A stretch of 60,084 nt of DNA from Candidatus Woesearchaeota archaeon (GCA_964344105.1 CAYFMD010000004.1:1-60084); one strand, 5' to 3'. Positions 12,303 through 30,625 are shown, counted from the stretch's first letter. Made by a program: numbers and translations. Notes: generated by a model from the sequence alone, not told the origin.

Positions 12303-12309
12303 TCCTGCC

Positions 12310-12362: not shown

Positions 12363-12402
12363 TTGGGATAGATGGGTTGATCATAATTAACCTTAAAAAA
12401 CC

Positions 12403-14822: not shown

Positions 14823-14852
14823 CCTAGATAGTAAGTTAGTGAGTTTAATAAC

Positions 14853-15506: not shown

Positions 15507-15639
15507 GCATAAGGCTGTTAATTAGATATTTTAAAGATTTATGTTGTTTTTTAGTTATTGGTTAATAAGATATTTTTAAGAGTCTAAGAATATTCTCTAT
15601 TAAAGCAAATATTATAAAGGGCGCATTTATTGCATTGCT

Positions 15640-16236: not shown

Positions 16237-16283
16237 TTTTGCATCACAGAAAACATTAAAAGTGAATAGGTGATAGGTAGGAT

Positions 16284-18548: not shown

Positions 18549-19062
18549 CATCTAGATTTCCAGGTTCTACTCCATCAAAAGTCCTTCTAAAAGCTTCTAA
18601 ACTATCATCTTCTGCTTCATTCATCCATTCAACTAATCCGGGTTCGTTTGGAGATTCAAAATAAGTTAGGTCTACATGTTCCCCATACACAAAATCAAAA
18701 ATTGTTTTAACTCTTGGCATTTGATATTCGCAAGTAACTACGGCTATACTTTCAAATCCATGGGGCTTAATTATATCCCTTCTAGTAAAAACTGCTTGTC
18801 CTACTGTATCTAAGGAGCTTGGTTCTAAGAATATTGATTCTCTGTTAATATCTTGAGGATGGTTTTCTAGTGCATATCTCTCCATAGCTTCTGCATGTGC
18901 ACAAGGAGATTCATAAGCATGTCCTCCACTGAAAGTTAAGCTTAGGGCCCTACTTCTTCTGTATAAATCCATTCCCTTTTCCACCCTATTGGTAGTTAAG
19001 GTGTCTAATTCTCCACTTTCATCAACATGTGAAGAAATAACTATTGCTGTTTGGTAGTCCAT
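18502..19062 (-). CDS. DUF218 (YdcF/ElyC-like) protein
   Basis: SGGHAYESPCAHAEAMERYAL core resembles the DUF218 sGG...EA..m motif. Confidence 0.5.
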   Translation of the reverse strand: MDYQTAIVISSHVDESGELDTLTTNRVEKGMDLYRRSRALSLTFSGGHAYESPCAHAEAMERYALENHPQDINRESIFLEPSSLDTVGQAVFTRRDIIKPHGFESIAVVTCEYQMPRVKTIFDFVYGEHVDLTYFESPNEPGLVEWMNEAEDDSLEAFRRTFDGVEPGNLDAIVERLFERHPLYKP

Positions 19063-19997
19063 CTTATCTTGTTTTTATTTTTATCAAAAATAAAAACCTC
19101 TTCATTAAATAGACCATCAAAAACTCCTTTGGCTGCTACTTTTGCAGATTCTAAATGACCTTTTTTTACAAATTGGAAGATTGTTAAAGGGAATTTAGTT
19201 GCAAAGAAAAAAGGCAGGAAGAAGAGGTTCTTTAGTCCTGCATTCTTTTTCATGAATAGTACAAATGCTCTGTTTAATAGATATACCCTGAATGGATTTT
19301 CCTTAAGAGACATTCCACCACCCCTTTTATGATAAAGTCTTGTTGAACCTACCACAACTATCTTGTACCCGGCCCTCTTTAATCTCAAACACCAATCTAC
19401 ATCTTCGTAATTTAGGAAGTAGGTTTCATCATAAAGTCCGATCTCTTCAAAGGTAGACCTTCTTGCTAGATGAGATCCGCCTCCTGTTGCGTCTCTTTCA
19501 ATATTCCCTAAAAGCTGGCCCTGATATTCTTGATCTTGACCATAGACTTTAGTTTTGCCTATCCACATATTCATATCATAACCTGCCATCCTTAGAAGAT
19601 TTGGTTCCTCGGTGTAAAAGTATAAACATCCGACCATCCCAATTTTTGGGTCTGATTTTAGGACCTCAAGCATTCTTTCTATTGTTTCTGGTTCAACTAT
19701 TTCATCATCATCAAGCCTTAGAATAAATTCACCTTTCGATGCCTTAATACAATTATTAATTGCCATAGGAGATCCAAGATTATGTTCATTTTCTTGTATA
19801 ATCACTTCCGGGTACATACTTTTGATAGTCTCTGCTGAACCATCTGTTGAACCATTATCTGCTATTATAATTTCTATGTTATCGTGAGTACTAGCATTTA
19901 GAGATTCTATGCATTTTATTAAATCCTCAATGCGATTCATTGTTGGGAAGACTACACTTACTAGATCTTTTTCTACTTTTTTGTTGTTAATTTTCAT
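19041..19997 (-). CDS. GT2-family glycosyltransferase
   Basis: VSVVFPTMNR, IIADNGSTDGS, LRLDDDE (DxD) typical GT-A/GT2 blocks. Confidence 0.8.
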   Translation of the reverse strand: MKINNKKVEKDLVSVVFPTMNRIEDLIKCIESLNASTHDNIEIIIADNGSTDGSAETIKSMYPEVIIQENEHNLGSPMAINNCIKASKGEFILRLDDDEIVEPETIERMLEVLKSDPKIGMVGCLYFYTEEPNLLRMAGYDMNMWIGKTKVYGQDQEYQGQLLGNIERDATGGGSHLARRSTFEEIGLYDETYFLNYEDVDWCLRLKRAGYKIVVVGSTRLYHKRGGGMSLKENPFRVYLLNRAFVLFMKKNAGLKNLFFLPFFFATKFPLTIFQFVKKGHLESAKVAAKGVFDGLFNEEVFIFDKNKNKIRWTTKQQ

Positions 19998-20799
19998 ATT
20001 GTTTGTATAGATCTGGATGATTATCCATCCACTCCTTTAATTCTTTAATCTGGACCCTAATGTCTTCAGAATTTATATCTGGAAAGTTATTTGTCCTGTC
20101 AACTATCTCTGTATTTTTTGGGTTTATAACAATTTGTTTGTTGAAATTGGTAGCTATTAAATTTAGTAAGTCAAATTTCGAAATTTTCTCTTTTGTTCTT
20201 ATATCTTTCACTCCCGAAAGGTCTTTGTAAGATTCTAAAATTTCTTTTATTGTTTTTGCTAGTTGGAGTGTTGCCATTCCATCCCATAGATGTCTGGTGA
20301 ATCCATTTGTTTCACCTTTTTCATTCATGAACCAATGAAATAATCCGCTACCATCTTTCAGTTCTGGGCCAATTATGCTTGTTCTTATAGTTAGATGTTC
20401 TGGATAATCTATTTCTCCAGCTCTCTTTGATCTACCATAAGGATTTAGGTCTGAATAACAGTCACTGCTTAGATGGATTACTTTTATTCCCAATGGTTTT
20501 GAGAATTTTGCTAGTTGATGAGGAAATAGGGAATTAATTTTAATTGCCTCTGCAGGATCTTCTTGTGCTTTCTTGACTAGGATTCCTATGCAGTTTATTA
20601 TGCAATCTATTTTTCCAGATAATTCTTCCTTGAGAATTTCTTCTCTCCAAGAATCATTTGATAAATGAAAATTTTCTCTCGTTTTTTCAATGATATTCCA
20701 ATCTGTGTTTTCTTTAAGGTAATTAGAAATCATGTGGCCAGCCATTCCTTTAGCCCCTAGAACCACTATTTTCATATTAAAGCCACTTCTTTTTCTCAA
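19987..20799 (-). CDS. RmlD/CapF-like sugar nucleotide reductase (SDR)
   Basis: MKIVVLGAKGMAGHMI Rossmann motif, YGRSK catalytic motif; immediately downstream of the 4,6-dehydratase gene. Confidence 0.65.
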   Translation of the reverse strand: MRKRSGFNMKIVVLGAKGMAGHMISNYLKENTDWNIIEKTRENFHLSNDSWREEILKEELSGKIDCIINCIGILVKKAQEDPAEAIKINSLFPHQLAKFSKPLGIKVIHLSSDCYSDLNPYGRSKRAGEIDYPEHLTIRTSIIGPELKDGSGLFHWFMNEKGETNGFTRHLWDGMATLQLAKTIKEILESYKDLSGVKDIRTKEKISKFDLLNLIATNFNKQIVINPKNTEIVDRTNNFPDINSEDIRVQIKELKEWMDNHPDLYKQYEN

Positions 20800-21841
20800 A
20801 TTTTAGCTGCTCTGGATCTAAGTCTTCTAAAAACCCTTGTCCTAAATCTTTTGACATCCACCCATCTTTTTCTAGGACATCCTTTAATTTTTCTTTGTCT
20901 AATTGAATTGTGTTAGTTGAATTGAATTCTGTAAAATTGACTCTTTTTCTTCCTGCATATTTTTCTTCTAACCCATTTATTTTAATGTTGGGCAAGATTA
21001 TGAAGAATCCTTCATCTTCCAATGTTCTATGAGAATCATATCTTGAAACTAAAACTTCATGAATTTTTTCTCCAGGCCTTATCCCAATCTCCCTTATCTT
21101 TGTTTCAGAATCTCCAAGCTCTTCTACCATAAGATTTGCTAAGTCTAGAATTTTTGCTGCAGGCATTTTCATTACAAAGATTTCTCCACCATGTGAATTT
21201 AGAATGCTTTTGAAAACTAGTTCTATGGCCTGCCTTAAAGTTAAGAAGAATCTTGTCATTTCTCCATTTGTGAGAGTTACCTCATTATTCTTTCTTATTT
21301 GTTCCTTGAATAAGGGTACAACACTTCCTGCACTTCCAATTACATTTCCCCCCCTAACACAAACGAATTGAGTGTCTCCAGAATAGTTGTTTGCGGCTAT
21401 TACAAGCTTCTCAGCGCATTGTTTTGTTACACCATACAGATTCAATGGGTCTACTGCTTTGTCAGTTGATACAAAGATTACTTTCTTTACCTTGTTCTTT
21501 ATGCTAGCATCAACAACATTTTGAGTTCCATGAATATTTGTTTGAACAACCTCCCAAGGATTTGTTTCACATACTGGAACGTGCTTAAGTGCGGCCATGT
21601 GAAATACATAATCTACGCCCTCCATGACTAAATCTAGCCTGCTTCTGTCTCTAACATCTCCAATCATAAATCTTAGAGCAGGATTATTTGCAAATTTGTG
21701 TTGCATTTCTACCTGCTTTTGTTCTCCCCTGCTATAAATTCTTACTTCCTGAGGATTATATCTTTGTAATAGTTGCTTAACTAGTTCGTTCGCCCAAGAA
21801 CCTGTTCCACCTGTAATCAAAATCTTTTTGTTGTCAAACAT
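20777..21841 (-). CDS. UDP-GlcNAc 4,6-dehydratase family protein (PseB/FnlA/CapE-like)
   Basis: MFDNKKILITGGTGSWANELVKQLL, IGDVRD, YGVTK; typical length 354 aa. Confidence 0.8.
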   Translation of the reverse strand: MFDNKKILITGGTGSWANELVKQLLQRYNPQEVRIYSRGEQKQVEMQHKFANNPALRFMIGDVRDRSRLDLVMEGVDYVFHMAALKHVPVCETNPWEVVQTNIHGTQNVVDASIKNKVKKVIFVSTDKAVDPLNLYGVTKQCAEKLVIAANNYSGDTQFVCVRGGNVIGSAGSVVPLFKEQIRKNNEVTLTNGEMTRFFLTLRQAIELVFKSILNSHGGEIFVMKMPAAKILDLANLMVEELGDSETKIREIGIRPGEKIHEVLVSRYDSHRTLEDEGFFIILPNIKINGLEEKYAGRKRVNFTEFNSTNTIQLDKEKLKDVLEKDGWMSKDLGQGFLEDLDPEQLKFEKKKWL

Positions 21842-21880: not shown

Positions 21881-22318
21881 TTGGATCTAAGAGAGGTTTT
21901 TATAGTCCAATCAATTAAGCTTAAAATGAATACGTTTAGAAAGTTCATGGCATTTTGTGTAGTGGGCGGGCTGGCTTTCTTAATCGATATAGGATTTGTG
22001 AATCTTTTCTTCTTTTTAGGGTTACCATTTCCAACCGCTAGAACATTTTCTATTACTCTTGCTTTAGTTTTCAACTTTTTTGTAAATAGGAGTTTTACAT
22101 TTAAGGCTAAACACACTCATGCTAAAAAGCAAGTTTTGCCATTTATTGTAGTCTATGTTATTGCAAATTTAGTTAATTTGTTTTCTAGTATTCTGATAGT
22201 TAATTTGGCAGGCGAGAACGTAATTAGTATAAATTGGGCTAGCTTTATTGGAACTGCAGTTAGTATTCCATTTAGCTTCTTTGGTTCCCTGATTTGGACA
22301 TTCCGAAAAAAGAAATAA
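21881..22318 (+). CDS. GtrA-family membrane protein
   Basis: FMAFCVVGGLAFLIDIGFVNLFF and 4-TM layout with FNFFVNRSFTF; start probably the internal MNTFRKF. Confidence 0.7.
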   Translation: MDLREVFIVQSIKLKMNTFRKFMAFCVVGGLAFLIDIGFVNLFFFLGLPFPTARTFSITLALVFNFFVNRSFTFKAKHTHAKKQVLPFIVVYVIANLVNLFSSILIVNLAGENVISINWASFIGTAVSIPFSFFGSLIWTFRKKK

Positions 22319-22797
22319 AACCTTTTATAGGAGAGTTATTTTTAGCTTCTATGAGTTTAAGAGAGAAGATTGTGTACAAGTTCTTTGAGCAAATAACGGT
22401 TTTAGGGAGTGTTTCATTTTATACCATATTTGTACTTTTCTTCTTTGCTATTGGAGATTATGTTAATTCAATAAAGCTAATCGTGGGAATGGGTATAATG
22501 TATATTGTTGCTATTGGAATAAGATTATTCTATTTTAAACCAAGGCCTGAAAAATTAGAACATAATAGCTGGATTGAAAAAATAGATGCTAGCAGTTTTC
22601 CGAGTATTCATTCAGGTAGAGTGGTTTTCTTGTATAGCTTTTTTGTAAGTCTTGCTCTTGGTAATCGGGTTAATATTTTGGTGTTCTTATTAATGTTATT
22701 AGTTTTCTGTTCTAGAATTTACTTGAAGAAACATTATTGGATAGATGTTCTAGGTGGAGCGATTTTAGGAGCTTTTGTGGGATGGTTAGTTTTATAG
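22294..22797 (+). CDS. PAP2-family polyprenyl-(di)phosphate phosphatase
   Basis: PAP2 motifs KPRP, SFPSIHS, SRIYLKKHYWIDV. Confidence 0.75.
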   Translation: MDIPKKEIKPFIGELFLASMSLREKIVYKFFEQITVLGSVSFYTIFVLFFFAIGDYVNSIKLIVGMGIMYIVAIGIRLFYFKPRPEKLEHNSWIEKIDASSFPSIHSGRVVFLYSFFVSLALGNRVNILVFLLMLLVFCSRIYLKKHYWIDVLGGAILGAFVGWLVL

Positions 22798-23628
22798 ATA
22801 GAATGCAATAATTATTATTAATAGCCAGATCGCTAGCGAGATTATATTTTCTTTGCTAAGGATGAATTTCTCTGGGTTTCTTATCTTTTCTGGTTCAGTT
22901 TTTGTTTTTCTAAAGAAGTTAGATATTATGTAAAGTGCTACTGGGAGGCTCAAAAGCAATAATGGTTTATTTGTTAGTATGCTGTATATTGAGAAGAAGA
23001 TGAATACCGAAGTTATAGATAGTGTGGATAAGATATTGAAAGTTTCCTTATCTGATTGGGAGTAGTTTGGCCTATATTTCTTGTAATCAAGCTCCATTGA
23101 TCTTTTTGTGCTTACTAAAAACATAGACAGGAAGAATGTACATAGGATTACCCATCCCGATACTGGCTCATTTATTATGAATGTTCCAGATACTGCACGT
23201 ATCACAAAATTTGTTGAGATGGTTATTACATCTAGGAAGGGTATTTTCTTTATTATGAAAGTATAGGCTTGAGATAAGATGTATAATGCTAGGACTGATA
23301 ATAAGAATGTATTAGAGAGTTTGTATGCAATCAGAATTGATAGATTGAATAAGACCAAAGAGATTATTAATGCTACTAATGGGCTTATTTTTCCTGAAGC
23401 AAGGGGGCGATTTTTCTTCTCAGGATGGTTTTTGTCTTTATCAATATCTATTATATCATTTATTATGTAGTAAGAAGATGAGATCAGGCATAATGAAATG
23501 AATCCAGGGGTTGTTAGAATAAATAATTCTAGATTAAATAGGTTGAATGAAAAGACTAGAGAAATGTAGATTATGAGGTTTTTGTACCACTGTTTTACTC
23601 TTAATAGTTTTATCAGCTCTAACGCCAT
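22792..23628 (-). CDS. UbiA-family prenyltransferase, decaprenyl-phosphate phosphoribosyltransferase-like
   Basis: YYIINDIIDIDKDKNHPEKKNRPLASGKI matches the NDxxDxxxD...HPxKxxRPxAxG block I recall for DPPR synthase (Rv3806c type); 8-9 TM helices. Confidence 0.75.
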   Translation of the reverse strand: MALELIKLLRVKQWYKNLIIYISLVFSFNLFNLELFILTTPGFISLCLISSSYYIINDIIDIDKDKNHPEKKNRPLASGKISPLVALIISLVLFNLSILIAYKLSNTFLLSVLALYILSQAYTFIIKKIPFLDVITISTNFVIRAVSGTFIINEPVSGWVILCTFFLSMFLVSTKRSMELDYKKYRPNYSQSDKETFNILSTLSITSVFIFFSIYSILTNKPLLLLSLPVALYIISNFFRKTKTEPEKIRNPEKFILSKENIISLAIWLLIIIIAFYL

Positions 23629-23748
23629 TTTTCTATATAATTTTTTGAAATTTCTTTTTTATAACCAAGATTGCCTTTAGAAATATATTTTAGAAAATCT
23701 ACTAATTCTAGGATGAATGCTTAAATATAGACAAATTATTTTGCTATT

Positions 23749-24795
23749 ATGAAAAAGCTGTTGATTACTGGTGGGGCTGGTTTTTTAGGATATCATCTTT
23801 GTAGAATTCTTTCTAATAGATTTGATGAGATTGTTATCTTAGATATAGATGAGTTCAATAAAGAAGAGTATGCGAGCAATGTTAAGTATTTTAAAGTGGA
23901 TGTTAGAGACAAGAATGCTGTTGAGAAGATAATATCTAGTGAGAGGCCAGATTTTGTCATTCAGGCTGCTGCTGCATTGCCCCTTAATGATAAGAAGACT
24001 ATATATGAAGTCAATCTTGGAGGAACTAGGAATATTATGCAAAGCAGTTTAGATAACAGTGTTAAGAGAGTTGTTTTTATTTCGTCTACTGCAGTCTATG
24101 GGGTTCCAGAAAAGCATCCTTTGTATGAAGATGATGAAATGGTAGGTGTAGGGCCCTATGGTACTACGAAGATATTGGGAGAAAAAATCTGTGAAGAGTT
24201 TCGAAATAAAGGATTATGTGTTCCAATAATAAGGCCAAAGACGTTTATTGGTACTGGAAGGTTGGGCGTTTTTCAGATATTGTATGATTGGGTTGAAAGT
24301 GGTAAGAGAATTCCCATAATCGGAAATGGTAGAAATAAGTACCAGTTATTAGAGGTTGGAGATTTAGTGGAAGCCATCTATCTTATGTTAGTTGAAGATA
24401 GTAAGAAGGTAGATGATGTTTTCAATGTAGGATCTGTTGATTATGGTACAGTTAATTTTGATGTGGGAAATTTATGTAAGAATGCTGGCAATGGGGCCAG
24501 GGTTTTTAAGACTCCTGCAAGGATTTTGAAAATTTTTTTGAAAATTTTTGAGAGGTTAGGAATTAGCCCTCTATATGAGTGGGTTTATGGTACTGCAGAT
24601 AAAGATTCTTTTGTTTCAACAGAAAAGATTCAGAAGCTTGGATGGAAACCTAAATATAGTAATTCAGAGGCTCTGATTAGATCCTATAATTGGTATTTAG
24701 AAAATAAGGTGGATGCAGATTCTAAGGGAACTGGAGTTACCCATAGGGTTGCTTGGAGTCAAGGTATTTTGGGGCTAGCAAAAAAGATTATGTAA
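23749..24795 (+). CDS. NAD-dependent epimerase/dehydratase (SDR)
   Basis: LLITGGAGFLGYHL, YGTTK catalytic motif. Confidence 0.8.
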   Translation: MKKLLITGGAGFLGYHLCRILSNRFDEIVILDIDEFNKEEYASNVKYFKVDVRDKNAVEKIISSERPDFVIQAAAALPLNDKKTIYEVNLGGTRNIMQSSLDNSVKRVVFISSTAVYGVPEKHPLYEDDEMVGVGPYGTTKILGEKICEEFRNKGLCVPIIRPKTFIGTGRLGVFQILYDWVESGKRIPIIGNGRNKYQLLEVGDLVEAIYLMLVEDSKKVDDVFNVGSVDYGTVNFDVGNLCKNAGNGARVFKTPARILKIFLKIFERLGISPLYEWVYGTADKDSFVSTEKIQKLGWKPKYSNSEALIRSYNWYLENKVDADSKGTGVTHRVAWSQGILGLAKKIM

Positions 24796-26046
24796 TTAAT
24801 TATCTTCCAGAATTAATTTGGCAGTTTTTATTCCAGATTCTAATGCTACATTCATATTTCTTATCTTAGGGTAGGTTAGCTGAATTCCAGAGAAATAAAG
24901 GCCATCTATTGGAGTTCTGTAATCTGGCATGTATTTATGGTAATCAATATCATAGATCGGCTCTGCGTATTTCGTACGCATTACTTTGACCCAATTAATT
25001 TTTGATTGAGGGAAGTATTTCTTTAGAACTTTAAGATATTTTTCTTTGATTTCTCCTTCGGAGAGATTTAGATCTTCTTCGCTTCCGCCATATCTTAGAC
25101 ACCAACTCACTTTGTCCTCATAAATATCACAAAGGATAGAATGTTGCATTATTATGTGCATATCTTCATCAAATAAATTGATCCAATAGTTATCTTTATC
25201 TAGAAATTCTTGGGTTCCAAAAACTAATCCAACTCCTGGACAATATTTTACTTTTTCGAGTTGATTTCTATAATCTTCTGGCAATCCTTTCGCTATTTTT
25301 ATGAAAACTTCAAAAGGGATTGTATTTATTATCAGATCGTATTTTATTTTCTTTCCAGATTCTATTATGTATTTTTCTTTAAGATTGATCTCTGTAATCT
25401 TTGAATTTATTTTTATCTTTCCACTGTTTTTTTCTATTTGCTCTTTTAAGCCATCTATCATTGGTTGATAGCTTGTTTCAGGGAATGTAAAATCATCTTG
25501 TACCTCCTTTTCATAGAGCCTATTTGCAAATTGCTTTGCAGAGATCCTATTTAGGGGAACATTAAATTTGTTCTTAGAATAAAGATGGTAGAAAATTTTA
25601 TCTGTAACTGACTTCCCACAATATTTGTTTAGCCAAGTTTCTGCATCTAACCCTTCTTTTAAATTATTTGGATTTAGAAGGAATATTGTGTAAAGACCAA
25701 AAAGTCCAAACCTAAATTTTTCATATAAATTTAGATAGTTAAATTTTGCAAATTTTAATATTTTGTTTATTGTGTTAAGCTTTCCATTAACACCTATTGA
25801 GACGTTGATTTTTTTCCATTTTAGATTGTTATTTGTAAATCTATTTAGATATGCTAGAGTGTTAGTGTTGCTTCTTATGATATGATGGTAGAACATAGGG
25901 ATTCTTTTTCCATTATGTTCAAAGGTAGATGCCAACCCTCCTAAAAAAGGCGCAGCCTCATAAACTTCTACCTTGAATTTTTTTGATAAAATGTCTGCTG
26001 CTGCCAATCCTGAAAGTCCCCCTCCAAGAACAATAATTTTTTTCAT
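24796..26046 (-). CDS. FAD/NAD(P)-dependent oxidoreductase (amine-oxidase/phytoene-desaturase-like fold)
   Basis: IIVLGGGLSGLAAADIL...VYEAAPFLGGLA dinucleotide-binding motif. Confidence 0.7.
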   Translation of the reverse strand: MKKIIVLGGGLSGLAAADILSKKFKVEVYEAAPFLGGLASTFEHNGKRIPMFYHHIIRSNTNTLAYLNRFTNNNLKWKKINVSIGVNGKLNTINKILKFAKFNYLNLYEKFRFGLFGLYTIFLLNPNNLKEGLDAETWLNKYCGKSVTDKIFYHLYSKNKFNVPLNRISAKQFANRLYEKEVQDDFTFPETSYQPMIDGLKEQIEKNSGKIKINSKITEINLKEKYIIESGKKIKYDLIINTIPFEVFIKIAKGLPEDYRNQLEKVKYCPGVGLVFGTQEFLDKDNYWINLFDEDMHIIMQHSILCDIYEDKVSWCLRYGGSEEDLNLSEGEIKEKYLKVLKKYFPQSKINWVKVMRTKYAEPIYDIDYHKYMPDYRTPIDGLYFSGIQLTYPKIRNMNVALESGIKTAKLILEDN

Positions 26047-26975
26047 TCTATCTTCTCCATTAATTTAGTATAATTGTAATATGGTGAGTTTAGCATTTTA
26101 CTGACCCCCTCTTTGAAAGGTGTGTAATTTACATTAAACTCTGATTCCCAATCTTCTAATGGGAAGATATCTCCTGCAGTTAAAGCTGAGAGTTGTTCAG
26201 GCACATAAGGTTTTTTCCCCTTAATGAAATTATAAATGTTAAATAAGGATGTGAATAGGGGTATTGGAAGTTTTATGAAAAGTGTTTTTTTGTTTTTTTG
26301 TTTTCTTATTTCTCTTAAGAGGTTTATGAAATATATTCTTTCCTTTCCTATTAAATTATAAGTTTTATTTTCCGGTTTTCTTTCTATAAGGTTTATTATT
26401 ACTTTTGCAAGGTCCTTTACAAATAATGGCTGTCTTATGTATTCTCCAGATCCGGGCATTGGAAATAGAATTTGATTGTCTAATGATTTTATTATGAAAT
26501 CTAGGTGTTTCATATCGAAGCATCCATACATTAATGGAGGCCTTAATATTGTATATTGACATTTAGAATTTTTTACTATGTTTTCTCCAATTGTTTTTGT
26601 TTCTGTATAAAGATCCTTAGCTACAGAAATAACTACTGAAGAGCTTATATGAATTAAGGAGACTTTATTTTTTTCGCAAATATCTATGATATTTCTTATA
26701 CTCTCCACATTATTTTTTTCATAGGGATCTCTTTCTGGAGAGGATATTTGTGCTTGTAGTTGGATTATTACATCTGCATTATTGAATAGTTCTTTTGGAA
26801 TTTTTGTTGATAAATCTATGCAGAGAGTTTCTATCTGTGGGTTAATTTTTTTAGCGAGATTTAGATTATTTTGGTTTTTATCTATGGCAATTATATGGTA
26901 ATTAGAACCTTTTAATTCATCTAATAGATTTAAACCAACCAACCCTGCAGCACCAGTAATTACAATCTTTTTCAT
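26043..26975 (-). CDS. NAD-dependent epimerase/dehydratase (SDR)
   Basis: KIVITGAAGLVGLNL, YTETK catalytic motif; start/stop overlap with the upstream oxidoreductase gene. Confidence 0.75.
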   Translation of the reverse strand: MKKIVITGAAGLVGLNLLDELKGSNYHIIAIDKNQNNLNLAKKINPQIETLCIDLSTKIPKELFNNADVIIQLQAQISSPERDPYEKNNVESIRNIIDICEKNKVSLIHISSSVVISVAKDLYTETKTIGENIVKNSKCQYTILRPPLMYGCFDMKHLDFIIKSLDNQILFPMPGSGEYIRQPLFVKDLAKVIINLIERKPENKTYNLIGKERIYFINLLREIRKQKNKKTLFIKLPIPLFTSLFNIYNFIKGKKPYVPEQLSALTAGDIFPLEDWESEFNVNYTPFKEGVSKMLNSPYYNYTKLMEKIE

Positions 26976-27022
26976 AGAAAATCTTTTGTTTGAAGGTATT
27001 TAATGTTTATTTTACTTTGAGA

Positions 27023-28348
27023 CTAGTTTCCATATGCACATAATTGTTGGTAGCAATTCTTTGTAGAATACTGTTCAGGAGGTTCGTGAGATATTGGGTA
27101 GACATAGATAAAATTAGTGTATTTTTTATCTTCAAATCTATTGAAATCTACCGCTATTTGTATCTTCTCCCTTAGAGGGATTTTTGATCCCAATGTTAAT
27201 TGATAAGATCTCATAGATTGTTTGTTTTCTAAACTAGCCTTATAATCTTGATCCCAGATAAAATAAGGACTATTTTCCCAAGTATGTGCGGCAAGCTTTA
27301 CTGATTGAAATGGTGCTCCAATAATTAAATCTGGTTGGAAATCATTTTGTATTTGATTCAAGTCATTAGTTATTTGGACATTCTCTCCAGCTCCAAAGAA
27401 GCCTGAAACTAGGAATATTGTTATTATGATAGATAGAATAATATGGATTTGCATGTCTTTTTTTCTTAATGTTTTTCCTAAGAAAAGTAATATTAGTGGG
27501 CTGATTATTAGGAAATATTTTATTTTTGCTCCTCTAATGAACCATACTATACTTGTTAATATTAGGAAGATTAGGTGCGGAGCGTACCTCTTCCAATCTA
27601 TCTTTATTATTTTGTAAAGAAGAGGAGACATCGCGATGAAAATTAAAAAGACTTCAGGAGTTACAAATGGCTGAATGTTTCTAGTTATTGAATGAAGCCC
27701 TAATGTGACCACTAGATTTGCTCCAGCATATCTTATGAAAGTGTATAATGGATTATTGAATAGATAAAAATCTAAAAGGAATCTAGGGATGATTCCAATC
27801 ACAACTGCTATAGACCAAATGAAGAATTCTGAAAAAGATTTCTTCCAGAAGTGAACTAGTGCAAATAGAACATAGATTATCAACATCGGTGTGTAGAACG
27901 CTATAGAGATTCCAAGAAATAATCCAGAAATTAGTTGGCTATATTTGAAGTCTTTTTTTAGATAAAATAGATAGGACAGTAGAAAGAATAGACTAGCTGG
28001 AAGGACGGGAGTTGTTTGGATACTTATGTACCAAGTTAATGGTGAAAATGCAAAAAGGAGAAATGTTTTCTTACTTTTGAAGCCATTTAGGATAACCAGG
28101 CCCATTAGAAATACAAATAGTGAATTGAACAGTTTTATTGCAGTAAATGTAGGCCAGATTTTTAAGAAAAATGACATTATGAATGGATAGAGTATTGAAT
28201 GCCCAATGAAAAGATCTATATTTTCTACTCCAGCAAAATATTTTGCTATGGCAATAAATTCATGAGTGTCATGAAAGCTAATTTTTGTTGAAAAAATTGA
28301 GAATAGAATTAAAGCTATTGCGAAGATTAAGAGCCAACCTTTTTTCAT
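27023..28348 (-). CDS. Polytopic membrane protein, possible GT-C-type glycosyltransferase
   Basis: 441 aa, about 10 TM helices then a soluble C-terminal domain; FHDTHEF acidic motif after TM1; glycan-cluster context only. Confidence 0.4.
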   Translation of the reverse strand: MKKGWLLIFAIALILFSIFSTKISFHDTHEFIAIAKYFAGVENIDLFIGHSILYPFIMSFFLKIWPTFTAIKLFNSLFVFLMGLVILNGFKSKKTFLLFAFSPLTWYISIQTTPVLPASLFFLLSYLFYLKKDFKYSQLISGLFLGISIAFYTPMLIIYVLFALVHFWKKSFSEFFIWSIAVVIGIIPRFLLDFYLFNNPLYTFIRYAGANLVVTLGLHSITRNIQPFVTPEVFLIFIAMSPLLYKIIKIDWKRYAPHLIFLILTSIVWFIRGAKIKYFLIISPLILLFLGKTLRKKDMQIHIILSIIITIFLVSGFFGAGENVQITNDLNQIQNDFQPDLIIGAPFQSVKLAAHTWENSPYFIWDQDYKASLENKQSMRSYQLTLGSKIPLREKIQIAVDFNRFEDKKYTNFIYVYPISHEPPEQYSTKNCYQQLCAYGN

Positions 28349-28372
28349 TTTACATGAAAATTTGCGGGTTAT

Positions 28373-28822
28373 TTAAGGATTTATGTACGTGTTGTGATAA
28401 TAGATATGAAGCTGTGAAATCTTTCTTGATAGAGGATACTTGTAATATGCTAGATCGATATAATCTGGGATCATGTGAATTACAAACCCAATTAATACAA
28501 ACCAAATTAGTGGAAAGAGAGGCGTTAATATTAACAAGAAAGTCCAAAATTCTATTCCATGGAAAGGCAACAGGACAAATTTCTTGTTCTTTCTTTCTGA
28601 ATCGGGAAGTTCTATCCATTTTTGTTTAAGACTTGAGAAGTAATTAGAAGCTCTTTTGAGTGAAAGATCTCTCCTCATTAGTGCATAGATTAGATAGTGG
28701 TCTACATCTATTAGGAAGGAAGATAAGAAGATTATTGAGGATTGCAGTAAAGTTAGAGAATATGCTACATGAATGATTGGAGTTATCAAAATCCCGACTA
28801 AAATATGGTATTTTGGTAACAT
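28373..28822 (-). CDS. Small membrane protein, possible membrane-bound metal-dependent hydrolase (DUF457-like)
   Basis: 149 aa, 4 TM helices, FLIDVDHYL His/Asp motif. Confidence 0.35.
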   Translation of the reverse strand: MLPKYHILVGILITPIIHVAYSLTLLQSSIIFLSSFLIDVDHYLIYALMRRDLSLKRASNYFSSLKQKWIELPDSERKNKKFVLLPFHGIEFWTFLLILTPLFPLIWFVLIGFVIHMIPDYIDLAYYKYPLSRKISQLHIYYHNTYINP

Positions 28823-28871: not shown

Positions 28872-29792
28872 ATGTATATAACATGCTTTCAGTTAGATAA
28901 GGAGCAAAAATTGCATTTCCAAAAGACTTTTGATAAGGTTAAATGTTTTTCTGGACCCTTGGATAGGGAGAATATTAATGAGATATTAGATGCTGAGATA
29001 TTGGTTTGTAGACCAAAAGGATCTAAAGTTATGTTGGGTAGCAGAGTTTTAGACAGGTTGAAAAATTTGAAGGCCATTTTTAGTATGTCTACGGGATTTG
29101 ACCATATAGATTTGGAGTATTGTAAGATTAAGGGAATTCGAGTTTTTAATGTGCCCTCCTATTCAGAGAGCAGTGTAGCTGAACAAACATTCGCTTTGAT
29201 CCTAGCTATTTCAAGAAAGATAGTTAGTGCTAGTAAGAAGAAGTTTCATAGAGACATTACTGGTTTCGATTTGAAAGGCAAAACATTAGGAGTTGTTGGT
29301 GCTGGAAAAATTGGATTGGAAGTTATAAGAATAGCAAAGGGATTTGGAATGAATGTTTTAGCATATGATGTTGTTAAAAATGAAACTGCTAGAAAAGAAT
29401 TGGATTATCAGTATGTTGAATTAGATGATTTGTTAAGAGAATCGGATGTAATTAGTGTTCATGCTCCATTAAATGAACATACATTTCATTTATTGAATAA
29501 AGATAATCTTTCGATAATCAAGAAGGGCGCTGTTTTGATAAATACCTCTAGGGGAGAGTTAGTTGAGAGCAGGGCTTTGTTTAATTTGTTAAGAAGCAAG
29601 AGGATTAGAGCTGCTGGCTTGGATGTGTTGGAAAAGAGAAGCGAGTATAATAGATTGTTAATGAGGATGGGAAATGTTGTATTGACCCCCCATAATTCTG
29701 CTAATACAATTGAATCTAGGAAAAAAGTTTTAGAGGAAACTATTAAGAATATTGCAAGTTATTTAAAAGGTGAAATGAGGAATGAGATATAA
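28872..29792 (+). CDS. D-isomer-specific 2-hydroxyacid dehydrogenase
   Basis: GKTLGVVGAGKIGLEV NAD motif, INTSRGELV, TPHNSANT catalytic His region. Confidence 0.85.
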   Translation: MYITCFQLDKEQKLHFQKTFDKVKCFSGPLDRENINEILDAEILVCRPKGSKVMLGSRVLDRLKNLKAIFSMSTGFDHIDLEYCKIKGIRVFNVPSYSESSVAEQTFALILAISRKIVSASKKKFHRDITGFDLKGKTLGVVGAGKIGLEVIRIAKGFGMNVLAYDVVKNETARKELDYQYVELDDLLRESDVISVHAPLNEHTFHLLNKDNLSIIKKGAVLINTSRGELVESRALFNLLRSKRIRAAGLDVLEKRSEYNRLLMRMGNVVLTPHNSANTIESRKKVLEETIKNIASYLKGEMRNEI

Positions 29793-30625
29793 TGCAATTT
29801 GGGTTAACAGGAAATAGGGGATTAATAGGAAGTTTTCTTGAAAAGAGATTGGTCGAAGAAGGTCATGAAGTGGTTCTTAAGGTTGATAAGATGGATGGGA
29901 CTGAAGTTTCAGATTTAGAAGATATGGATTCTGAAAGAAAGATAGATATTTTTATACATTGTGCGGCTTCTTGTAAGATTAATAAGATAGTTGAAAATCC
30001 CTCCATTGGTATGAAGAATGCCCTTGATACATTTAGTGCTTTAGAGTTTTGTAGGAAAAATAACATTAAGAGATTTGTTTACTTTTCTTCTTCCAGGGTA
30101 TTGAGTGAAGAGAGTAATGCTTATACTGCCGGGAAATTATTTGGAGAGGAACTATGCAAAGCATATAATGAATGTTATGGTATTGACTATATTATTATTA
30201 GGCCGTCTACAGTTTATGGGCCTACTGAAGACAGGACAAATAGATTGATGAATATTTTCATTAACAATGCTTTAAGAGGAGATGACTTGAAGATTTATGG
30301 AGATCCAGAAACAAAGACATTAGACTTCACATATGTAGGAGATATTGTTGATGCTATAATGCTTGCCTTGAAAGCAGATTGGTGTAAGGAGTATAATGTA
30401 AGTGGAGGAGAGGAAGTAAGACTTTTTGATCTTGCAAGATTTATAATTGAAGAAACTGAGAGCACTAGCAAGATTAGTATTTTAGATGAAGAAACTGCTC
30501 AGCCTCAAAAAGTTAGTTTAGATTTAAGTGAAATTAGAAAGTTGGGTTATTCTCCGAAGGTGAGTCTTTGGGAAGGTGTTCGGAGGAACATTGAGTTTCT
30601 AAAAAGAAATCAGGGATTTCTTTAA
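29792..30625 (+). CDS. NAD-dependent epimerase/dehydratase (short SDR)
   Basis: GLTGNRGLIGSFL, YTAGK catalytic motif. Confidence 0.7.
   Translation: MQFGLTGNRGLIGSFLEKRLVEEGHEVVLKVDKMDGTEVSDLEDMDSERKIDIFIHCAASCKINKIVENPSIGMKNALDTFSALEFCRKNNIKRFVYFSSSRVLSEESNAYTAGKLFGEELCKAYNECYGIDYIIIRPSTVYGPTEDRTNRLMNIFINNALRGDDLKIYGDPETKTLDFTYVGDIVDAIMLALKADWCKEYNVSGGEEVRLFDLARFIIEETESTSKISILDEETAQPQKVSLDLSEIRKLGYSPKVSLWEGVRRNIEFLKRNQGFL

What the first reader, a model, noticed from the sequence alone, without database searches (positions are those of the whole stretch)
21881..28348. Module resembling the mycobacterial decaprenyl-phospho-arabinose (DPA) pathway: GtrA + PAP2 + DPPR-synthase-like UbiA + oxidoreductase/SDR pair + GT-C-like membrane protein
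Seen: the UbiA protein carries NDIIDIDKDKNHPEKKNRPLASG, matching the NDxxDxxxD..HPxKxxRPxAxG block I recall for 5-phosphoribosyl-1-pyrophosphate:decaprenyl-phosphate phosphoribosyltransferase. It is flanked by a PAP2 phosphatase (overlapping gene ends), a GtrA-family protein, two SDRs, an FAD oxidoreductase and a 441-aa polytopic membrane protein. In Mycobacterium, UbiA (Rv3806c), a PAP2 phosphatase (Rv3807c), the FAD oxidase DprE1 and the SDR DprE2 convert PRPP + polyprenyl-P into lipid-linked arabinofuranose. A GtrA-like protein (Rv3789) is linked to the pathway, and GT-C enzymes use the donor. Inference: this archaeon makes a dolichyl/polyprenyl-phospho-pentofuranose donor for extracytoplasmic glycosylation. 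The FAD enzyme here has the GxGxxG amine-oxidase-like fold rather than the VAO-like DprE1 fold, so the 2'-epimerisation step would be analogous, not orthologous.
Basis: partly seen in the sequence, partly recalled or inferred. Interest (0 to 1): 0.7.

Follow-up and report, generated by a model that had tools for sequence, protein, structure and literature searches.

The report
Archaeal lipid-linked pentose glycosylation gene cluster
A tiny-celled (DPANN) archaeon carries a conserved gene cluster that most likely builds a ribose-derived sugar on a membrane lipid carrier and attaches it to its cell surface, a route so far described only in bacteria such as the tuberculosis bacillus, here with a different set of sugar-tailoring enzymes.

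Summary
Window 21881-28822 encodes GtrA, PAP2, a UbiA-family protein, two extended SDRs, an amine-oxidase-fold flavoprotein, a 441-aa membrane protein and a 149-aa membrane protein.

- **UbiA protein:** it belongs with the PRPP:polyprenyl-phosphate phosphoribosyltransferases (Rv3806c type), not with quinone or lipid prenyltransferases. The evidence is the best curated model, 11 of 12 Rv3806c substrate-binding residues, and loss of the second Asp-rich motif.
- **441-aa protein:** it is a divergent GT-C glycosyltransferase (AlphaFold pLDDT 91.6; Foldseek hits ArnT, ALG9, PMT and AftD; hhalign 98.4% to PMT_2-type neighbours).
- **Synteny:** gene order is conserved in DPANN relatives down to 57% UbiA identity. 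Parts of it recur in haloarchaea (SDR348 with UbiA) and Agrobacterium (SDR310, the PRK07233 flavoprotein and GtrA).

The cluster is therefore an archaeal version of the "three-component" pentofuranose glycosylation systems (Kelly et al. 2024).

The arabinose-specific reading is not supported. There are no DprE1/DprE2 orthologues. In Agrobacterium the flavoprotein/SDR310 pair sits beside DprE1/E2-like genes, so it is probably not just their substitute. The identity of the sugar remains unknown.

Verdict: new variant of a known kind, of moderate interest.

The parts
21881..22318 (+). GtrA-family small membrane protein; candidate flippase for the lipid-linked sugar. The probable true start is the ATG at 21926.
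   Evidence: PF04138, E 1.3e-19, covering residues 25-141. ATG at 21926. Orthologue next to PAP2 in L001 and L007. GtrA also ends the Agrobacterium and Lactococcus clusters.
22294..22797 (+). PAP2-superfamily membrane phosphatase; proposed 5'-phosphatase acting on polyprenyl-P-ribose-5-P. The probable start is 22348.
   Evidence: PF01569, E 1.2e-16. The motifs RxxxxxxRP, PSIH and SRxxxxxHxxxD can be read in the translation. Its 3' end overlaps that of UbiA. PAP2 lies within 5 kb of UbiA in 21 of 81 loci, and a PHP-domain protein takes its place in 10 others. It is not detectably orthologous to Rv3807c.
22792..23628 (-). UbiA-superfamily PRPP:polyprenyl-phosphate 5-phosphoribosyltransferase (DPPRS/PPPRS-like).
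   Evidence: NF008977, E 1e-50, against 2e-15 or weaker for prenyltransferase models. PDB 8j8j, E 2.7e-24. Residues R10, K16, Y54, N57, D61, K71, R74, Y122, K127, F141 and K175 correspond to Rv3806c R22, K28, Y70, N73, D77, K87, R90, Y138, K143, Y157 and K191. The second Asp-rich motif is absent. In the NJ tree it falls inside the DPPRS-like group.
23749..24795 (+). Extended SDR (SDR348) with a GalE-like SSTAVYG / YxxxK signature, divergently transcribed from UbiA; candidate single-enzyme epimerase of the lipid-linked pentofuranose.
   Evidence: PF01370, E 2e-39. It is 47% identical over its full length (E 2e-119) to the SDR divergent from the DPPRS gene on a Haloterrigena plasmid. It is 32-35% identical to SDRs in rhizobial UbiA clusters, including Rhizobium sp. 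CCGE531, which Kelly et al. list as a candidate system.
24796..26046 (-). FAD-dependent oxidoreductase of the PRK07233 family (amine-oxidase / phytoene-desaturase fold); a tailoring enzyme of unknown reaction.
   Evidence: NF005560, 262.7 bits, above the cut-off of 252. AF2 pLDDT 94.4. Foldseek: phytoene desaturase 5mog at TMq 0.83, then PPOX. Homologues are more than 50% identical across DPANN. UbiA lies within 3 kb in 4 of 4 loci found from the FAD side. The Agrobacterium family member scores 510 bits.
26043..26975 (-). Extended SDR (SDR310), overlapping the flavoprotein gene by 4 nt (translationally coupled); its partner enzyme.
   Evidence: PF01370, E 1e-21. In the loci recovered through the UbiA search it is found only together with the flavoprotein (10 of 10). 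It also adjoins the flavoprotein in L096, L097 and the P0272 locus. It is 37% identical (E 6e-68), and of the same length, as the SDR preceding PRK07233 in Agrobacterium.
27023..28348 (-). Divergent GT-C-fold glycosyltransferase (about 11 TM helices plus a C-terminal beta-rich domain outside the cytoplasm); proposed to transfer the pentose from the lipid donor.
   Evidence: AF2 pLDDT 91.6, pTM 0.91. The top Foldseek PDB hits are all GT-C enzymes: ALG9, ArnT (TMq 0.63), ALG12, Pmt, AftD and Emb. hhalign against the PMT_2-type proteins next to UbiA gives 98.4%, E 5e-15, with the invariant D27 aligned to their invariant Asp.
28373..28822 (-). 149-aa polytopic membrane protein, first gene of the minus-strand operon; function unknown.
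   Evidence: Conserved next to the GT-C or PAP2 gene in L001-L006 and L098. There is only a sub-threshold DUF6122 hit.

Best explanation
The cluster is an archaeal (DPANN) version of the lipid-linked pentofuranose glycosylation systems known from bacteria.

**Proposed steps**
1. On the cytoplasmic face, the UbiA-family enzyme transfers ribose-5-phosphate from PRPP to a polyprenyl (probably dolichyl-type) phosphate.
2. The PAP2 phosphatase removes the 5'-phosphate, giving polyprenyl-P-ribofuranose.
3. Three cytoplasmic redox enzymes tailor the sugar while it is on the lipid, most plausibly by oxidation and re-reduction (epimerisation) at C2' and/or C3'. These are SDR348 acting alone, and the translationally coupled pair of SDR310 and the PRK07233 flavoprotein.
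4. GtrA flips the donor across the membrane.
5. The 441-aa GT-C enzyme transfers the pentose to a cell-surface acceptor.

**Shown here**
- The family assignments of all the proteins.
- Conservation of the PRPP- and lipid-phosphate-binding residues.
- The GT-C fold.
- The gene linkage.

**Inferred**
- Every enzymatic step.
- The order of the steps.
- The nature of the lipid carrier.
- The acceptor.
- The identity of the final sugar (Ribf, Araf, Xylf or something else).
For: **UbiA protein**
- Its best NCBIfam model is decaprenyl-phosphate phosphoribosyltransferase at 1e-50. The best prenyltransferase model reaches only 2e-15.
- All 30 DPANN relatives tested behave the same way.
- Rv3806c (8j8j) matches at 2.7e-24.
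- 11 of 12 residues that bind PRPP or decaprenyl-P in Rv3806c (PMC10994848) are conserved, and 10 of those 11 (all but K127) are invariant in the family.
- The second Asp-rich motif of true prenyltransferases is replaced by KRxxEL, as in Rv3806c.
- In the tree it groups with DPPRS-like proteins, with 72% bootstrap support against E. coli UbiA, MenA and CyoE.

**GT-C enzyme:**

**Synteny**
- The full gene order is kept at 79%, 64% and 57% UbiA identity.
- In 81 non-redundant loci, the genes within 5 kb of UbiA include GT-C (28 loci, plus 13 with a second GT-C family), PAP2 (21), PHP (10, never together with PAP2) and the flavoprotein (18).
- L029 and L030 carry PHP and PAP2 respectively in the same slot. 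This fits an obligatory phosphatase step.
- From the flavoprotein side, 4 of 4 loci have UbiA within 3 kb.

**Cross-domain recurrence**
- Haloterrigena: GT-C x2, SDR348 orthologue, DPPRS, PHP.
- Agrobacterium: HAD-UbiA, DprE1-like, DprE2-like, SDR310 orthologue, PRK07233, GtrA.
- Lactococcus: DPPRS, HAD, GtrA.

**Precedent and setting**
- Kelly et al. 2024 (PMC11127046) showed biochemically that a PPPRS and a GT-C install pentofuranoses, with a predicted MATE flippase as the third component. A GalE-like SDR (ORF13) alone converts Ribf to Xylf in that system.
- The window cluster sits inside a glycan-biosynthesis island.
- AglB/STT3 is a neighbour in 10 related loci.
Against: - No biochemical data exist for any archaeal member.
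- The UbiA score (173 bits) is below the NCBIfam equivalog cut-off (234).
- One residue that contacts the ribose, Rv3806c Q135, aligns to S119; a Gln follows at position 120.
- The PAP2 protein is not detectably orthologous to Rv3807c.
- GtrA is a neighbour in only 6 of 84 loci.
- The link between this GT-C family and UbiA is frequent but not universal. L098 has the GT-C and the 149-aa protein but no UbiA within 7 kb.
- The closest structural relatives of the flavoprotein act on polyene or porphyrinogen substrates, not on sugars.
- A source of PRPP and of polyprenyl phosphate in this reduced genome could not be checked from one 60-kb window.
Confidence: 0.7

Rival explanations
1. The cluster makes polyprenyl-P-D-arabinofuranose: the PRK07233 flavoprotein oxidises the 2'-OH as DprE1 does, and one of the SDRs reduces the 2'-keto intermediate as DprE2 does.
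For: - The flavoprotein and SDR310 genes overlap by 4 nt. In the loci recovered through the UbiA search, SDR310 is found only with the flavoprotein (10 of 10), mirroring the DprE1/DprE2 pairing.
- Both proteins lack signal peptides, so they would be cytoplasmic like the rest of the pathway.
- Three different flavoprotein classes (VAO-type DprE1, a GMC oxidoreductase and PRK07233) each appear beside an SDR in DPPRS clusters. This suggests a recurring oxidase-plus-reductase logic.
Against: - In Agrobacterium the SDR310/PRK07233 pair lies in one operon with DprE1-like (373 bits) and DprE2-like (161 bits) genes. It is therefore not simply their replacement.
- No feature fixes the regiochemistry (C2' or C3').
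- A third enzyme, SDR348, would be left without a role.
- The flavoprotein's nearest structural neighbours are desaturases and oxidases of hydrophobic substrates.
- Electron acceptors such as menaquinone, which DprE1 uses, are not known in DPANN archaea (my own background knowledge, not tested here).
Confidence: 0.15
2. The UbiA, PAP2, GtrA and GT-C proteins install unmodified ribofuranose. The SDRs and the flavoprotein act on something else: nucleotide sugars of the surrounding glycan island, or the lipid carrier itself (for example saturation or desaturation of the polyprenyl chain towards a dolichol-type carrier).
For: - The flavoprotein's best structural matches are phytoene desaturase and HpnE-type enzymes, which act on isoprenoid chains.
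- The window is rich in nucleotide-sugar SDRs.
- Many DPANN loci have UbiA with GT-C and PAP2 but no SDR or flavoprotein, so the core works without them.
Against: - SDR348, SDR310 and the flavoprotein keep their positions next to DPPRS-type UbiA genes across DPANN, Halobacteria and Alphaproteobacteria.
- The Agrobacterium host would be expected to use unsaturated undecaprenyl phosphate, as typical Gram-negative bacteria do, which makes a carrier-saturation role unlikely there.
- An accessory gene that switches the sugar is exactly what ORF13 does in Citrobacter.
Confidence: 0.12
3. The UbiA protein is an ordinary prenyltransferase (DGGGP synthase or quinone/haem prenyltransferase, as some automatic annotations say), and the cluster modifies membrane lipids.
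For: - Some database names for relatives read '4-hydroxybenzoate polyprenyltransferase' or 'digeranylgeranylglyceryl phosphate synthase'.
- The flavoprotein, PAP2 and UbiA together superficially resemble a lipid pathway.
Against: - Prenyltransferase models score about 35 orders of magnitude worse than the DPPRS models.
- The second Asp-rich motif, which binds the prenyl diphosphate through Mg2+, is missing. It is replaced by the K/R residues that bind PRPP and the lipid phosphate in Rv3806c.
- The commonest specific partner is a GT-C glycosyltransferase.
Confidence: 0.03

Closest known systems
Mycobacterial decaprenyl-phospho-arabinose pathway (Rv3806c DPPRS, Rv3807c PAP2, DprE1/DprE2, Rv3789 GtrA-like, Aft/Emb GT-C enzymes)
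   Same: - A DPPRS-type UbiA enzyme with the same PRPP- and lipid-phosphate-binding residues.
- A small PAP2 phosphatase gene next to it.
- A GtrA-family protein.
- A GT-C transferase.
- Tailoring of the sugar while it is lipid-linked.
   Different: - It is in an archaeon.
- There is no VAO-type DprE1 and no classical-SDR DprE2.
- The PAP2 is not detectably orthologous to Rv3807c.
- The GT-C enzyme is a small (441 aa) PMT_2-like protein, not an Emb/Aft type.
- The carrier lipid and the sugar product are unknown.
Three-component pentofuranose side-chain systems, with Citrobacter youngae O1/O2 as prototype (Kelly et al. 2024, PMC11127046)
   Same: - The logic of PPPRS, then phosphatase, then flippase, then GT-C.
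- An optional cytoplasmic GalE-like extended SDR (ORF13) that alone changes the pentose. SDR348 has the same SSxxVYG / YxxxK signature.
- A homologue of SDR348 (32% identity) lies in one of that paper's listed candidate clusters, Rhizobium sp. CCGE531.
   Different: - The phosphatase is a separate PAP2 protein, not a fused HAD domain.
- The flippase candidate is GtrA, not a MATE protein.
- Membership of the GT-C enzyme in GT136 was not tested.
- There is an extra flavoprotein/SDR310 pair.
- That paper describes bacterial systems (plus one phage-encoded example); the only mention of archaea in its main text is a cited reference, not a system.
Uncharacterised cluster on Agrobacterium salinitolerans plasmid pDG3-1a (also in Rhizobium tumorigenes)
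   Same: It contains orthologues of SDR310 (37% identity) and a member of the same PRK07233 family as the flavoprotein (23% identity to it; 510 bits to NF005560). They are adjacent, in the same order, and followed by GtrA, in one operon with a DPPRS-type UbiA.
   Different: - It also has DprE1-like and DprE2-like genes.
- Its UbiA is a HAD fusion (PRK08238).
- It has no SDR348 and no PAP2.
Uncharacterised cluster on a Haloterrigena sp. KLK7 plasmid (also in Natronococcus and Halostagnicola)
   Same: It is archaeal. An SDR348 orthologue (47% identity, including the C-terminal HRVAWxQG...AKKI tail) is divergently transcribed from a DPPRS gene, beside two GT-C genes and a phosphatase.
   Different: - The phosphatase is a PHP-domain protein.
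- There is no flavoprotein/SDR310 pair.
- There is no GtrA.
Gtr (GtrA/GtrB/GtrC) O-antigen glucosylation and the ArnT lipid A aminoarabinose pathway
   Same: - A polyprenyl-monophosphate sugar donor is made in the cytoplasm, flipped by a small membrane protein and used by a GT-C enzyme.
- ArnT is the best full-length structural match of the 441-aa protein (TMq 0.63).
   Different: Here the donor is made from PRPP by a UbiA-fold enzyme, not from a nucleotide sugar by a GT2 enzyme.

Membership tests
PRPP:polyprenyl-phosphate phosphoribosyltransferase (DPPRS/PPPRS, Rv3806c type) | UbiA-superfamily membrane fold | tested here: met
   PF01040, E 1.3e-28, covering residues 29-249. The match to the 8j8j chain covers residues 5-215.
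PRPP:polyprenyl-phosphate phosphoribosyltransferase (DPPRS/PPPRS, Rv3806c type) | NDxxDxxxD followed by HPxK..RPxAxG in cytoplasmic loop 1, plus the N-terminal RxxQWxKN motif | tested here: met
   N57, D58, D61, D65, H68, P69, K71, R74, P75 and G79, together with R10, Q13, W14, K16 and N17. They align with Rv3806c and are invariant or nearly invariant in 30 relatives.
PRPP:polyprenyl-phosphate phosphoribosyltransferase (DPPRS/PPPRS, Rv3806c type) | Residues binding PRPP and the lipid phosphate in the Rv3806c structures: R22, K28, Y70, N73, D77, K87, R90, Q135, Y138, K143, Y157, K191 | tested here: met
   11 of 12 are conserved: R10, K16, Y54, N57, D61, K71, R74, Y122, K127, F141 and K175. F in place of Y157 also occurs in some mycobacteria. 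Q135 aligns to S119, with Q120 next to it.
PRPP:polyprenyl-phosphate phosphoribosyltransferase (DPPRS/PPPRS, Rv3806c type) | Absence of the second Asp-rich motif of prenyltransferases (a K/R cluster in its place) | tested here: met
   In the alignment with E. coli UbiA, MenA and CyoE, the DRDDD segment is deleted and KRSMEL sits where Rv3806c has KRYAEL.
PRPP:polyprenyl-phosphate phosphoribosyltransferase (DPPRS/PPPRS, Rv3806c type) | Score at or above the curated equivalog cut-off of the NCBIfam DPPRS models | tested here: not met
   The best model, NF008977, scores 172.9 bits against a cut-off of 234. The protein is a distant subfamily member, not an equivalog by NCBI's criterion.
PRPP:polyprenyl-phosphate phosphoribosyltransferase (DPPRS/PPPRS, Rv3806c type) | Catalyses PRPP + polyprenyl-P -> polyprenyl-P-ribose-5-P | not testable with these tools
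   This needs a membrane enzyme assay.
Three-component extracytoplasmic pentofuranose glycosylation system (Kelly et al. 2024) | PPPRS plus a 5'-phosphatase function | tested here: met
   A PAP2 protein with intact catalytic motifs overlaps the end of the UbiA gene. PAP2 and PHP are interchangeable in relatives.
Three-component extracytoplasmic pentofuranose glycosylation system (Kelly et al. 2024) | Dedicated flippase candidate (MATE, SMR or GtrA type) | tested here: met
   GtrA, PF04138, E 1.3e-19. Flippase activity itself was not tested.
Three-component extracytoplasmic pentofuranose glycosylation system (Kelly et al. 2024) | GT-C glycosyltransferase encoded with the synthase | tested here: met
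Three-component extracytoplasmic pentofuranose glycosylation system (Kelly et al. 2024) | The GT-C enzyme belongs to CAZy family GT136 | not tested
   No GT136 sequence or profile was available. The closest profile is Pfam PMT_2 (GT39/GT83-like), reached through neighbours.
Mycobacterial DPA (arabinofuranose) pathway | DprE1 (VAO-type FAD oxidase) orthologue | tested here: not met
   tblastn with two DprE1-like proteins finds nothing in the 60-kb window at E <= 0.01. The flavoprotein present is amine-oxidase/PDS-fold.
Mycobacterial DPA (arabinofuranose) pathway | DprE2 (classical SDR, NF053786) orthologue | tested here: not met
   tblastn with two DprE2-like proteins finds nothing. NF053786 is not among the families listed for either cluster SDR (only the best 25 are shown). 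Both SDRs are extended SDRs.
Mycobacterial DPA (arabinofuranose) pathway | Rv3807c-orthologous PAP2 phosphatase | tested here: not met
   BLASTP against the Tsukamurella Rv3807c orthologue gives E 0.36, with similarity only at the C3 motif. It belongs to the same superfamily; orthology is not shown.
GT-C fold glycosyltransferases | Multi-helix membrane GT-C architecture | tested here: met
   AF2 pLDDT 91.6. The 14 best Foldseek hits are all GT-C enzymes that use polyprenyl-P-sugar donors (ALG9/ALG12, ArnT, Pmt1/2/4, AftD and a GPI mannosyltransferase).
GT-C fold glycosyltransferases | Conserved acidic residue in the first extracytoplasmic loop after TM1 | tested here: met
   D27 is invariant, and H26 and E30 are nearly invariant, in 41 sequences. 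D27 aligns with the invariant Asp of the WWDSHVY motif in the PMT_2-type relatives.
GT-C fold glycosyltransferases | Direct match to a curated GT-C sequence family (Pfam) | tested here: not met
   The window protein and its 55 relatives have no Pfam hit. Homology is seen only at the profile-profile and structural level.
NCBIfam NF005560 (PRK07233, 'hypothetical protein') | Score above the curated cut-off | tested here: met
   262.7 bits against a cut-off of 252. The family has no assigned function.

The most novel reading that the evidence does not exclude
The PRK07233 flavoprotein together with SDR310 is a previously unrecognised, third kind of tailoring machine for lipid-linked pentofuranoses, distinct from DprE1/DprE2 and from the ORF13-type single SDR. 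It is shared by DPANN archaea and Alphaproteobacteria. In this archaeon, acting together with SDR348, it would yield a pentose modified at two positions, for example D-lyxofuranose. Kelly et al. note that lyxofuranose has never been found in any solved glycan. The sugar would be displayed on the cell surface of an episymbiotic archaeon.
Probability: 0.12. Interest if true: 0.8.

Novelty: new variant of a known kind. Interest (0 to 1): 0.55.

Why it matters
Pentofuranose glycosylation from PRPP through a lipid carrier is known as the mycobacterial arabinan route, which is a drug target. Since 2024 it has also been known as a widespread bacterial O-antigen and pilin modification.

Finding the same core in DPANN archaea would extend this chemistry to the archaeal domain. 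The core is widespread there: at least 261 relatives in species-representative genomes, and 779 proteins at E <= 1e-10. It also occurs on haloarchaeal plasmids.

The cluster gives a concrete, testable handle on the cell surface of DPANN archaea, which is essentially unknown and mediates their attachment to hosts.

It also flags two enzyme families with no assigned function as candidate lipid-linked sugar tailoring enzymes: the PRK07233 flavoproteins and their SDR310 partners. A haloarchaeal cluster (Haloterrigena) and a bacterial one (Agrobacterium) occur in cultured organisms where this could be tested genetically.

Tried and rejected
- **441-aa protein, sequence search of PDB:** no hit even at E <= 10. 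The fold had to be reached through AlphaFold with Foldseek and through hhalign.
- **Window PAP2 against an Rv3807c orthologue:** no significant pairwise similarity, so orthology with the mycobacterial phosphatase was dropped.
- **DprE1/DprE2-like genes in the window:** none found.
- **UDP-galactopyranose-mutase-like role for the flavoprotein:** UGM is only rank 33 in Foldseek, behind phytoene desaturase and PPOX. This reading is not favoured, though a redox-neutral flavin reaction is not excluded.
- **Prenyltransferase (DGGGPS or quinone) reading of the UbiA protein:** considered and rejected.
- **266-aa gene at the end of L099:** tested as a possible truncated UbiA; it is not one.
- **Literature searches for archaeal or DPANN DPPRS systems:** nothing relevant was found.
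- **Citrobacter ORF13 and GT136 sequences:** I could not obtain them, so direct comparison with SDR348 and with the GT-C enzyme was not possible.
- **Archaeal promoters:** the tool models sigma-70 promoters only, so it was not used.

Full report
**1. What is in the sequence**

Between 21.9 and 28.8 kb the window carries eight genes in four transcription units:
- GtrA (21881-22318, +) followed by PAP2 (22294-22797, +).
- UbiA (22792-23628, -), convergent with PAP2 and overlapping its 3' end by 6 nt.
- SDR348 (23749-24795, +), divergent from UbiA across a 120-bp AT-rich spacer.
- A minus-strand operon: the 149-aa membrane protein (28373-28822), the 441-aa membrane protein (27023-28348), SDR310 (26043-26975) and the flavoprotein (24796-26046). 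SDR310 and the flavoprotein overlap by 4 nt.

The probable true starts are 21926 for GtrA and 22348 for PAP2. These fit the Pfam domain limits and the gene lengths called for the orthologues in L001.

The organism is a DPANN archaeon. The best relatives of every protein come from Pacearchaeota, Nanoarchaeota and Woesearchaeota metagenome-assembled genomes. GC content is about 33%.

**2. The UbiA protein is a phosphoribosyltransferase, not a prenyltransferase**

- Its best curated model is decaprenyl-phosphate phosphoribosyltransferase (NF008977, E 1e-50). The HAD-fused PPPRS model PRK08238 follows. Lipid, quinone and haem prenyltransferase models reach only 2e-15 or weaker. All 30 DPANN relatives tested give the same ranking.
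- Against PDB the top hit is M. tuberculosis Rv3806c (8j8j, E 2.7e-24).
- I mapped the residues that the Rv3806c structure paper shows to bind PRPP, Mg2+ and decaprenyl phosphate (PMC10994848) onto the HMMER alignment. Rv3806c R22, K28, Y70, N73, D77, K87, R90, Y138, K143, Y157 and K191 correspond to R10, K16, Y54, N57, D61, K71, R74, Y122, K127, F141 and K175. Nearly all of these are invariant in the DPANN family. Only Q135 differs: it aligns to S119, with a Gln at position 120.
- An alignment with E. coli UbiA, MenA and CyoE shows that the second Asp-rich motif of true prenyltransferases is deleted. It is replaced by KRxxEL, as in Rv3806c.
- In a neighbour-joining tree the window protein lies in a DPANN clade within the DPPRS-like group. 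That group is split from the E. coli prenyltransferases with 72% bootstrap support.
- The score is below NCBI's equivalog cut-off (173 against 234 bits). It is therefore a distant subfamily, not a close orthologue.

**3. The 441-aa protein is a GT-C glycosyltransferase**

- It has only 55 detectable sequence relatives besides itself. None has a Pfam domain, and the few named by a source organism are DPANN MAGs.
- An AlphaFold model built on their alignment is confident (pLDDT 91.6, pTM 0.91).
- Its best Foldseek matches in PDB are all GT-C enzymes that use polyprenyl-phosphate sugar donors: ALG9, ArnT (TMq 0.63), ALG12, Pmt4, Pmt1/2, AftD, GPI mannosyltransferase I, DPY19 and EmbA/B/C.
- Iterated HMMs found that many related loci have a protein of about 480 aa immediately upstream of UbiA. 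Those proteins pass the Pfam PMT_2 threshold.
- A profile-profile comparison joins the two families: 98.4% probability, E 5e-15, over 314 columns. The invariant D27 of the window family (FHDxxEY, just after TM1) aligns with the invariant Asp of WWDSHVY. This is the position of the catalytic acid in the first extracytoplasmic loop of GT-C enzymes.

**4. The neighbours are conserved with the UbiA gene**

- The complete order GT-C, SDR310, FAD, SDR348 (opposite strand), UbiA, PAP2, then GtrA or the 149-aa protein, is kept at 79%, 64% and 57% UbiA identity.
- I examined 81 non-redundant loci: 77 of the 80 species-representative loci from the genome scan (nearly all DPANN, plus Altiarchaeota and one CPR contig), the window, and three metagenome loci. 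Unbiased clustering of genes within 5 kb of UbiA gives: GT2 in 38 loci, GT-C in 28 plus a second GT-C family in 13, DUF362 in 24, PAP2 in 21, SDRs in 20, the flavoprotein in 18, B12-radical-SAM in 18, PHP in 10, AglB/STT3 in 10 and DUF2304 in 10.
- PAP2 and PHP never co-occur. L029 and L030 are otherwise collinear but carry PHP and PAP2 respectively in the same slot. That is what one expects if a phosphatase step is obligatory and its provider is interchangeable. Bacteria show the same pattern with fused HAD, separate HAD and PAP2.
- Starting from the flavoprotein instead, 4 of 4 further loci have UbiA within 3 kb, and 3 of 4 have an adjacent SDR (confirmed as SDR310 in L096 and L097).
- Starting from the GT-C enzyme, the link is weaker. 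L099 has GT-C then FAD and then ends. L098 has the GT-C and the 149-aa protein but no UbiA within 7 kb.

**5. Recurrence outside DPANN**

- **Haloterrigena plasmid:** GT39, a 'DolP-mannose mannosyltransferase', an SDR, a DPPRS gene and a PHP protein. The SDR is divergent from the DPPRS gene exactly as here. It is 47% identical to SDR348 over the full length, including the C-terminal HRVAWxQG...AKKI tail. The same SDR occurs in Natronococcus and Halostagnicola.
- **Agrobacterium salinitolerans pDG3-1a:** one operon encodes HAD-UbiA (PRK08238), DprE1-like, DprE2-like, an SDR310 orthologue (37% identity, E 6e-68, also 310 aa), a PRK07233 flavoprotein (510 bits) and GtrA.
- **Rhizobium sp. CCGE531:** this cluster has an SDR348 homologue, an SMR transporter and an adjacent small hypothetical protein, a GMC oxidoreductase, a probable GT-C enzyme and HAD-UbiA. 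Kelly et al. list it among 'more elaborate' candidate pentofuranose systems.
- **Canonical types for comparison:** Chondrinema (DPPRS, DprE1, DprE2, GT39), Lactococcus (DPPRS, HAD, GtrA) and Tsukamurella (PAP2, then DPPRS, then a downstream gene annotated 'zomB' that I take to be the AftB-type GT-C).

**6. How it most likely works**

The best-supported model follows the biochemically established bacterial scheme (PMC11127046; PMC10994848):
1. PRPP plus polyprenyl-P gives polyprenyl-P-Ribf-5-P (UbiA).
2. The 5'-phosphate is removed (PAP2).
3. The sugar is tailored on the cytoplasmic side (SDR348; SDR310 with the flavoprotein).
4. The donor is flipped (GtrA).
5. The pentose is transferred outside the cell by the GT-C enzyme.

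All three redox enzymes start directly with their dinucleotide-binding motif and have no signal peptide, which is consistent with action before flipping.

SDR348 carries the GalE-type SSTAVYG and YGTTK signature, not the dehydratase TDEVYG signature (read). It occurs with UbiA in haloarchaea without any flavoprotein. It is therefore the best candidate for a self-contained epimerase like Citrobacter ORF13, which converts Ribf to Xylf.

The flavoprotein has a phytoene-desaturase/PPOX-like fold (pLDDT 94.4; 5mog at TMq 0.83). This fits a membrane-associated hydrophobic substrate. Its obligate partner SDR310 has an unusually short Ser-to-Tyr spacing (9 residues), shared with the Agrobacterium orthologue. 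However, the pair coexists with DprE1/E2-like genes in Agrobacterium, so it probably acts at another position or performs another reaction.

In a furanose, only C2', C3' (secondary OH) and C5' (primary OH) can be oxidised. The plausible outcomes are therefore Araf, Xylf, a doubly epimerised pentose or a C5'-oxidised pentose. None of these can be chosen from sequence.

The acceptor is unknown. The cluster lies in a 23-kb glycan island containing nucleotide-sugar enzymes, GT6, GT2, a Wzx-like flippase, radical SAM enzymes and UDP-glucose dehydrogenase. Related loci often adjoin AglB. An N-glycan or another surface polymer is therefore likely.

**7. Comparison and novelty**

Functionally this matches the three-component pentofuranose systems and the mycobacterial DPA pathway. 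By membership, it meets the defining features of the DPPRS family except the curated score cut-off. It also meets the architectural criteria of a three-component system.

It fails the tests for the DPA pathway proper: no DprE1, no DprE2 and no demonstrable Rv3807c orthologue.

Three literature searches of the held library found no description of an archaeal system. In the main text of Kelly et al., archaea appear only in a cited reference, not as a system.

I rate it a new variant of a known kind. The variant combines an archaeal host, a GT-C subfamily invisible to Pfam, alternation between PAP2 and PHP phosphatases, and a flavoprotein/SDR tailoring pair of unknown reaction that is shared with Alphaproteobacteria.

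Noticed in passing
L029 versus L030; also L008, L011, L016, L045, L046, L050, L065, L069, L073, and L085 8925-9605: A PHP-domain protein replaces PAP2 next to the DPPRS-type UbiA gene. It is present in 10 loci and never together with PAP2, and it is also in the haloarchaeal plasmid cluster. This looks like non-orthologous displacement of the 5'-phosphatase.
   Followed up: partly
window 1485-2363 (-): The window itself encodes a PHP-domain protein about 20 kb from the cluster. It has weak similarity (32% over 72 aa, E 3e-8) to the haloarchaeal PHP protein that sits next to DPPRS.
   Followed up: no
L008, L012-L017, L045, L046, L050, L051, L065, L095, L097 (examples): DUF362 proteins (about 355 aa) are among the commonest neighbours of UbiA, in 24 of 81 loci. 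They often flank the PRK07233 flavoprotein where SDR310 is absent. They may be an alternative partner of the flavoprotein.
   Followed up: no
L027, L031, L034, L037, L040, L041, L047, L074, L077, L082: A different, longer operon recurs, mostly in MAGs labelled Woesearchaeota: a second GT-C, GT2, an unknown 238-aa protein, GT-C, UbiA, PAP2, an HTH regulator and, in three of them, AglB/STT3. It links the pentose module to a GT2-type lipid-sugar synthase and to the N-glycosylation transferase.
   Followed up: partly
L096 3965-4775; L097 2700-3427: Pairs of small EamA/SMR-like membrane proteins (116-125 aa) lie close to the UbiA gene (one unrelated gene intervenes in L096) where GtrA is missing. 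They resemble ArnE/ArnF-type flippases of lipid-linked aminoarabinose.
   Followed up: no
L084 (Candidatus Nomurabacteria, CPR bacterium) 2-1328: A UbiA-PAP2 pair on a CPR bacterial contig nests inside the DPANN clade of the UbiA tree. This is either lateral transfer between ultra-small archaea and bacteria or a binning error.
   Followed up: no
window 96-1499, 2606-5044, 5046-7484: There are two adjacent 812-aa ORFs. One of them, and the ORF at 96-1499, carry a type I phosphodiesterase / nucleotide pyrophosphatase domain. The other 812-aa ORF has no Pfam hit. They lie at the edge of the glycan island.
   Followed up: no
window 8569-21841 and 28872-31518: The cluster is embedded in a large surface-glycan island. 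Its genes encode three NDP-sugar dehydratase/epimerase SDRs, a nucleotidyltransferase, GT6, radical SAM/SPASM, a Wzx-like flippase, a methyltransferase, a PIG-L deacetylase, a formyltransferase, DUF218, GT2, a CapD-like dehydratase with an RmlD-like partner, a 2-hydroxyacid dehydrogenase and UDP-glucose dehydrogenase.
   Followed up: partly
record titles (for example L019, L020, L022, L025): Many MAGs titled 'uncultured Methanosarcinales archaeon' carry UbiA genes and gene neighbourhoods indistinguishable from those of DPANN Woesearchaeota. The taxonomic labels of these records look unreliable.
   Followed up: no
window 23749-24795, C-terminal about 25 residues; L085 6688-7779: SDR348 and its haloarchaeal orthologue share a conserved C-terminal tail (GxxHRVAWxQGxLxxAKKI) beyond the usual SDR fold. 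It may be an amphipathic membrane-anchoring helix.
   Followed up: no
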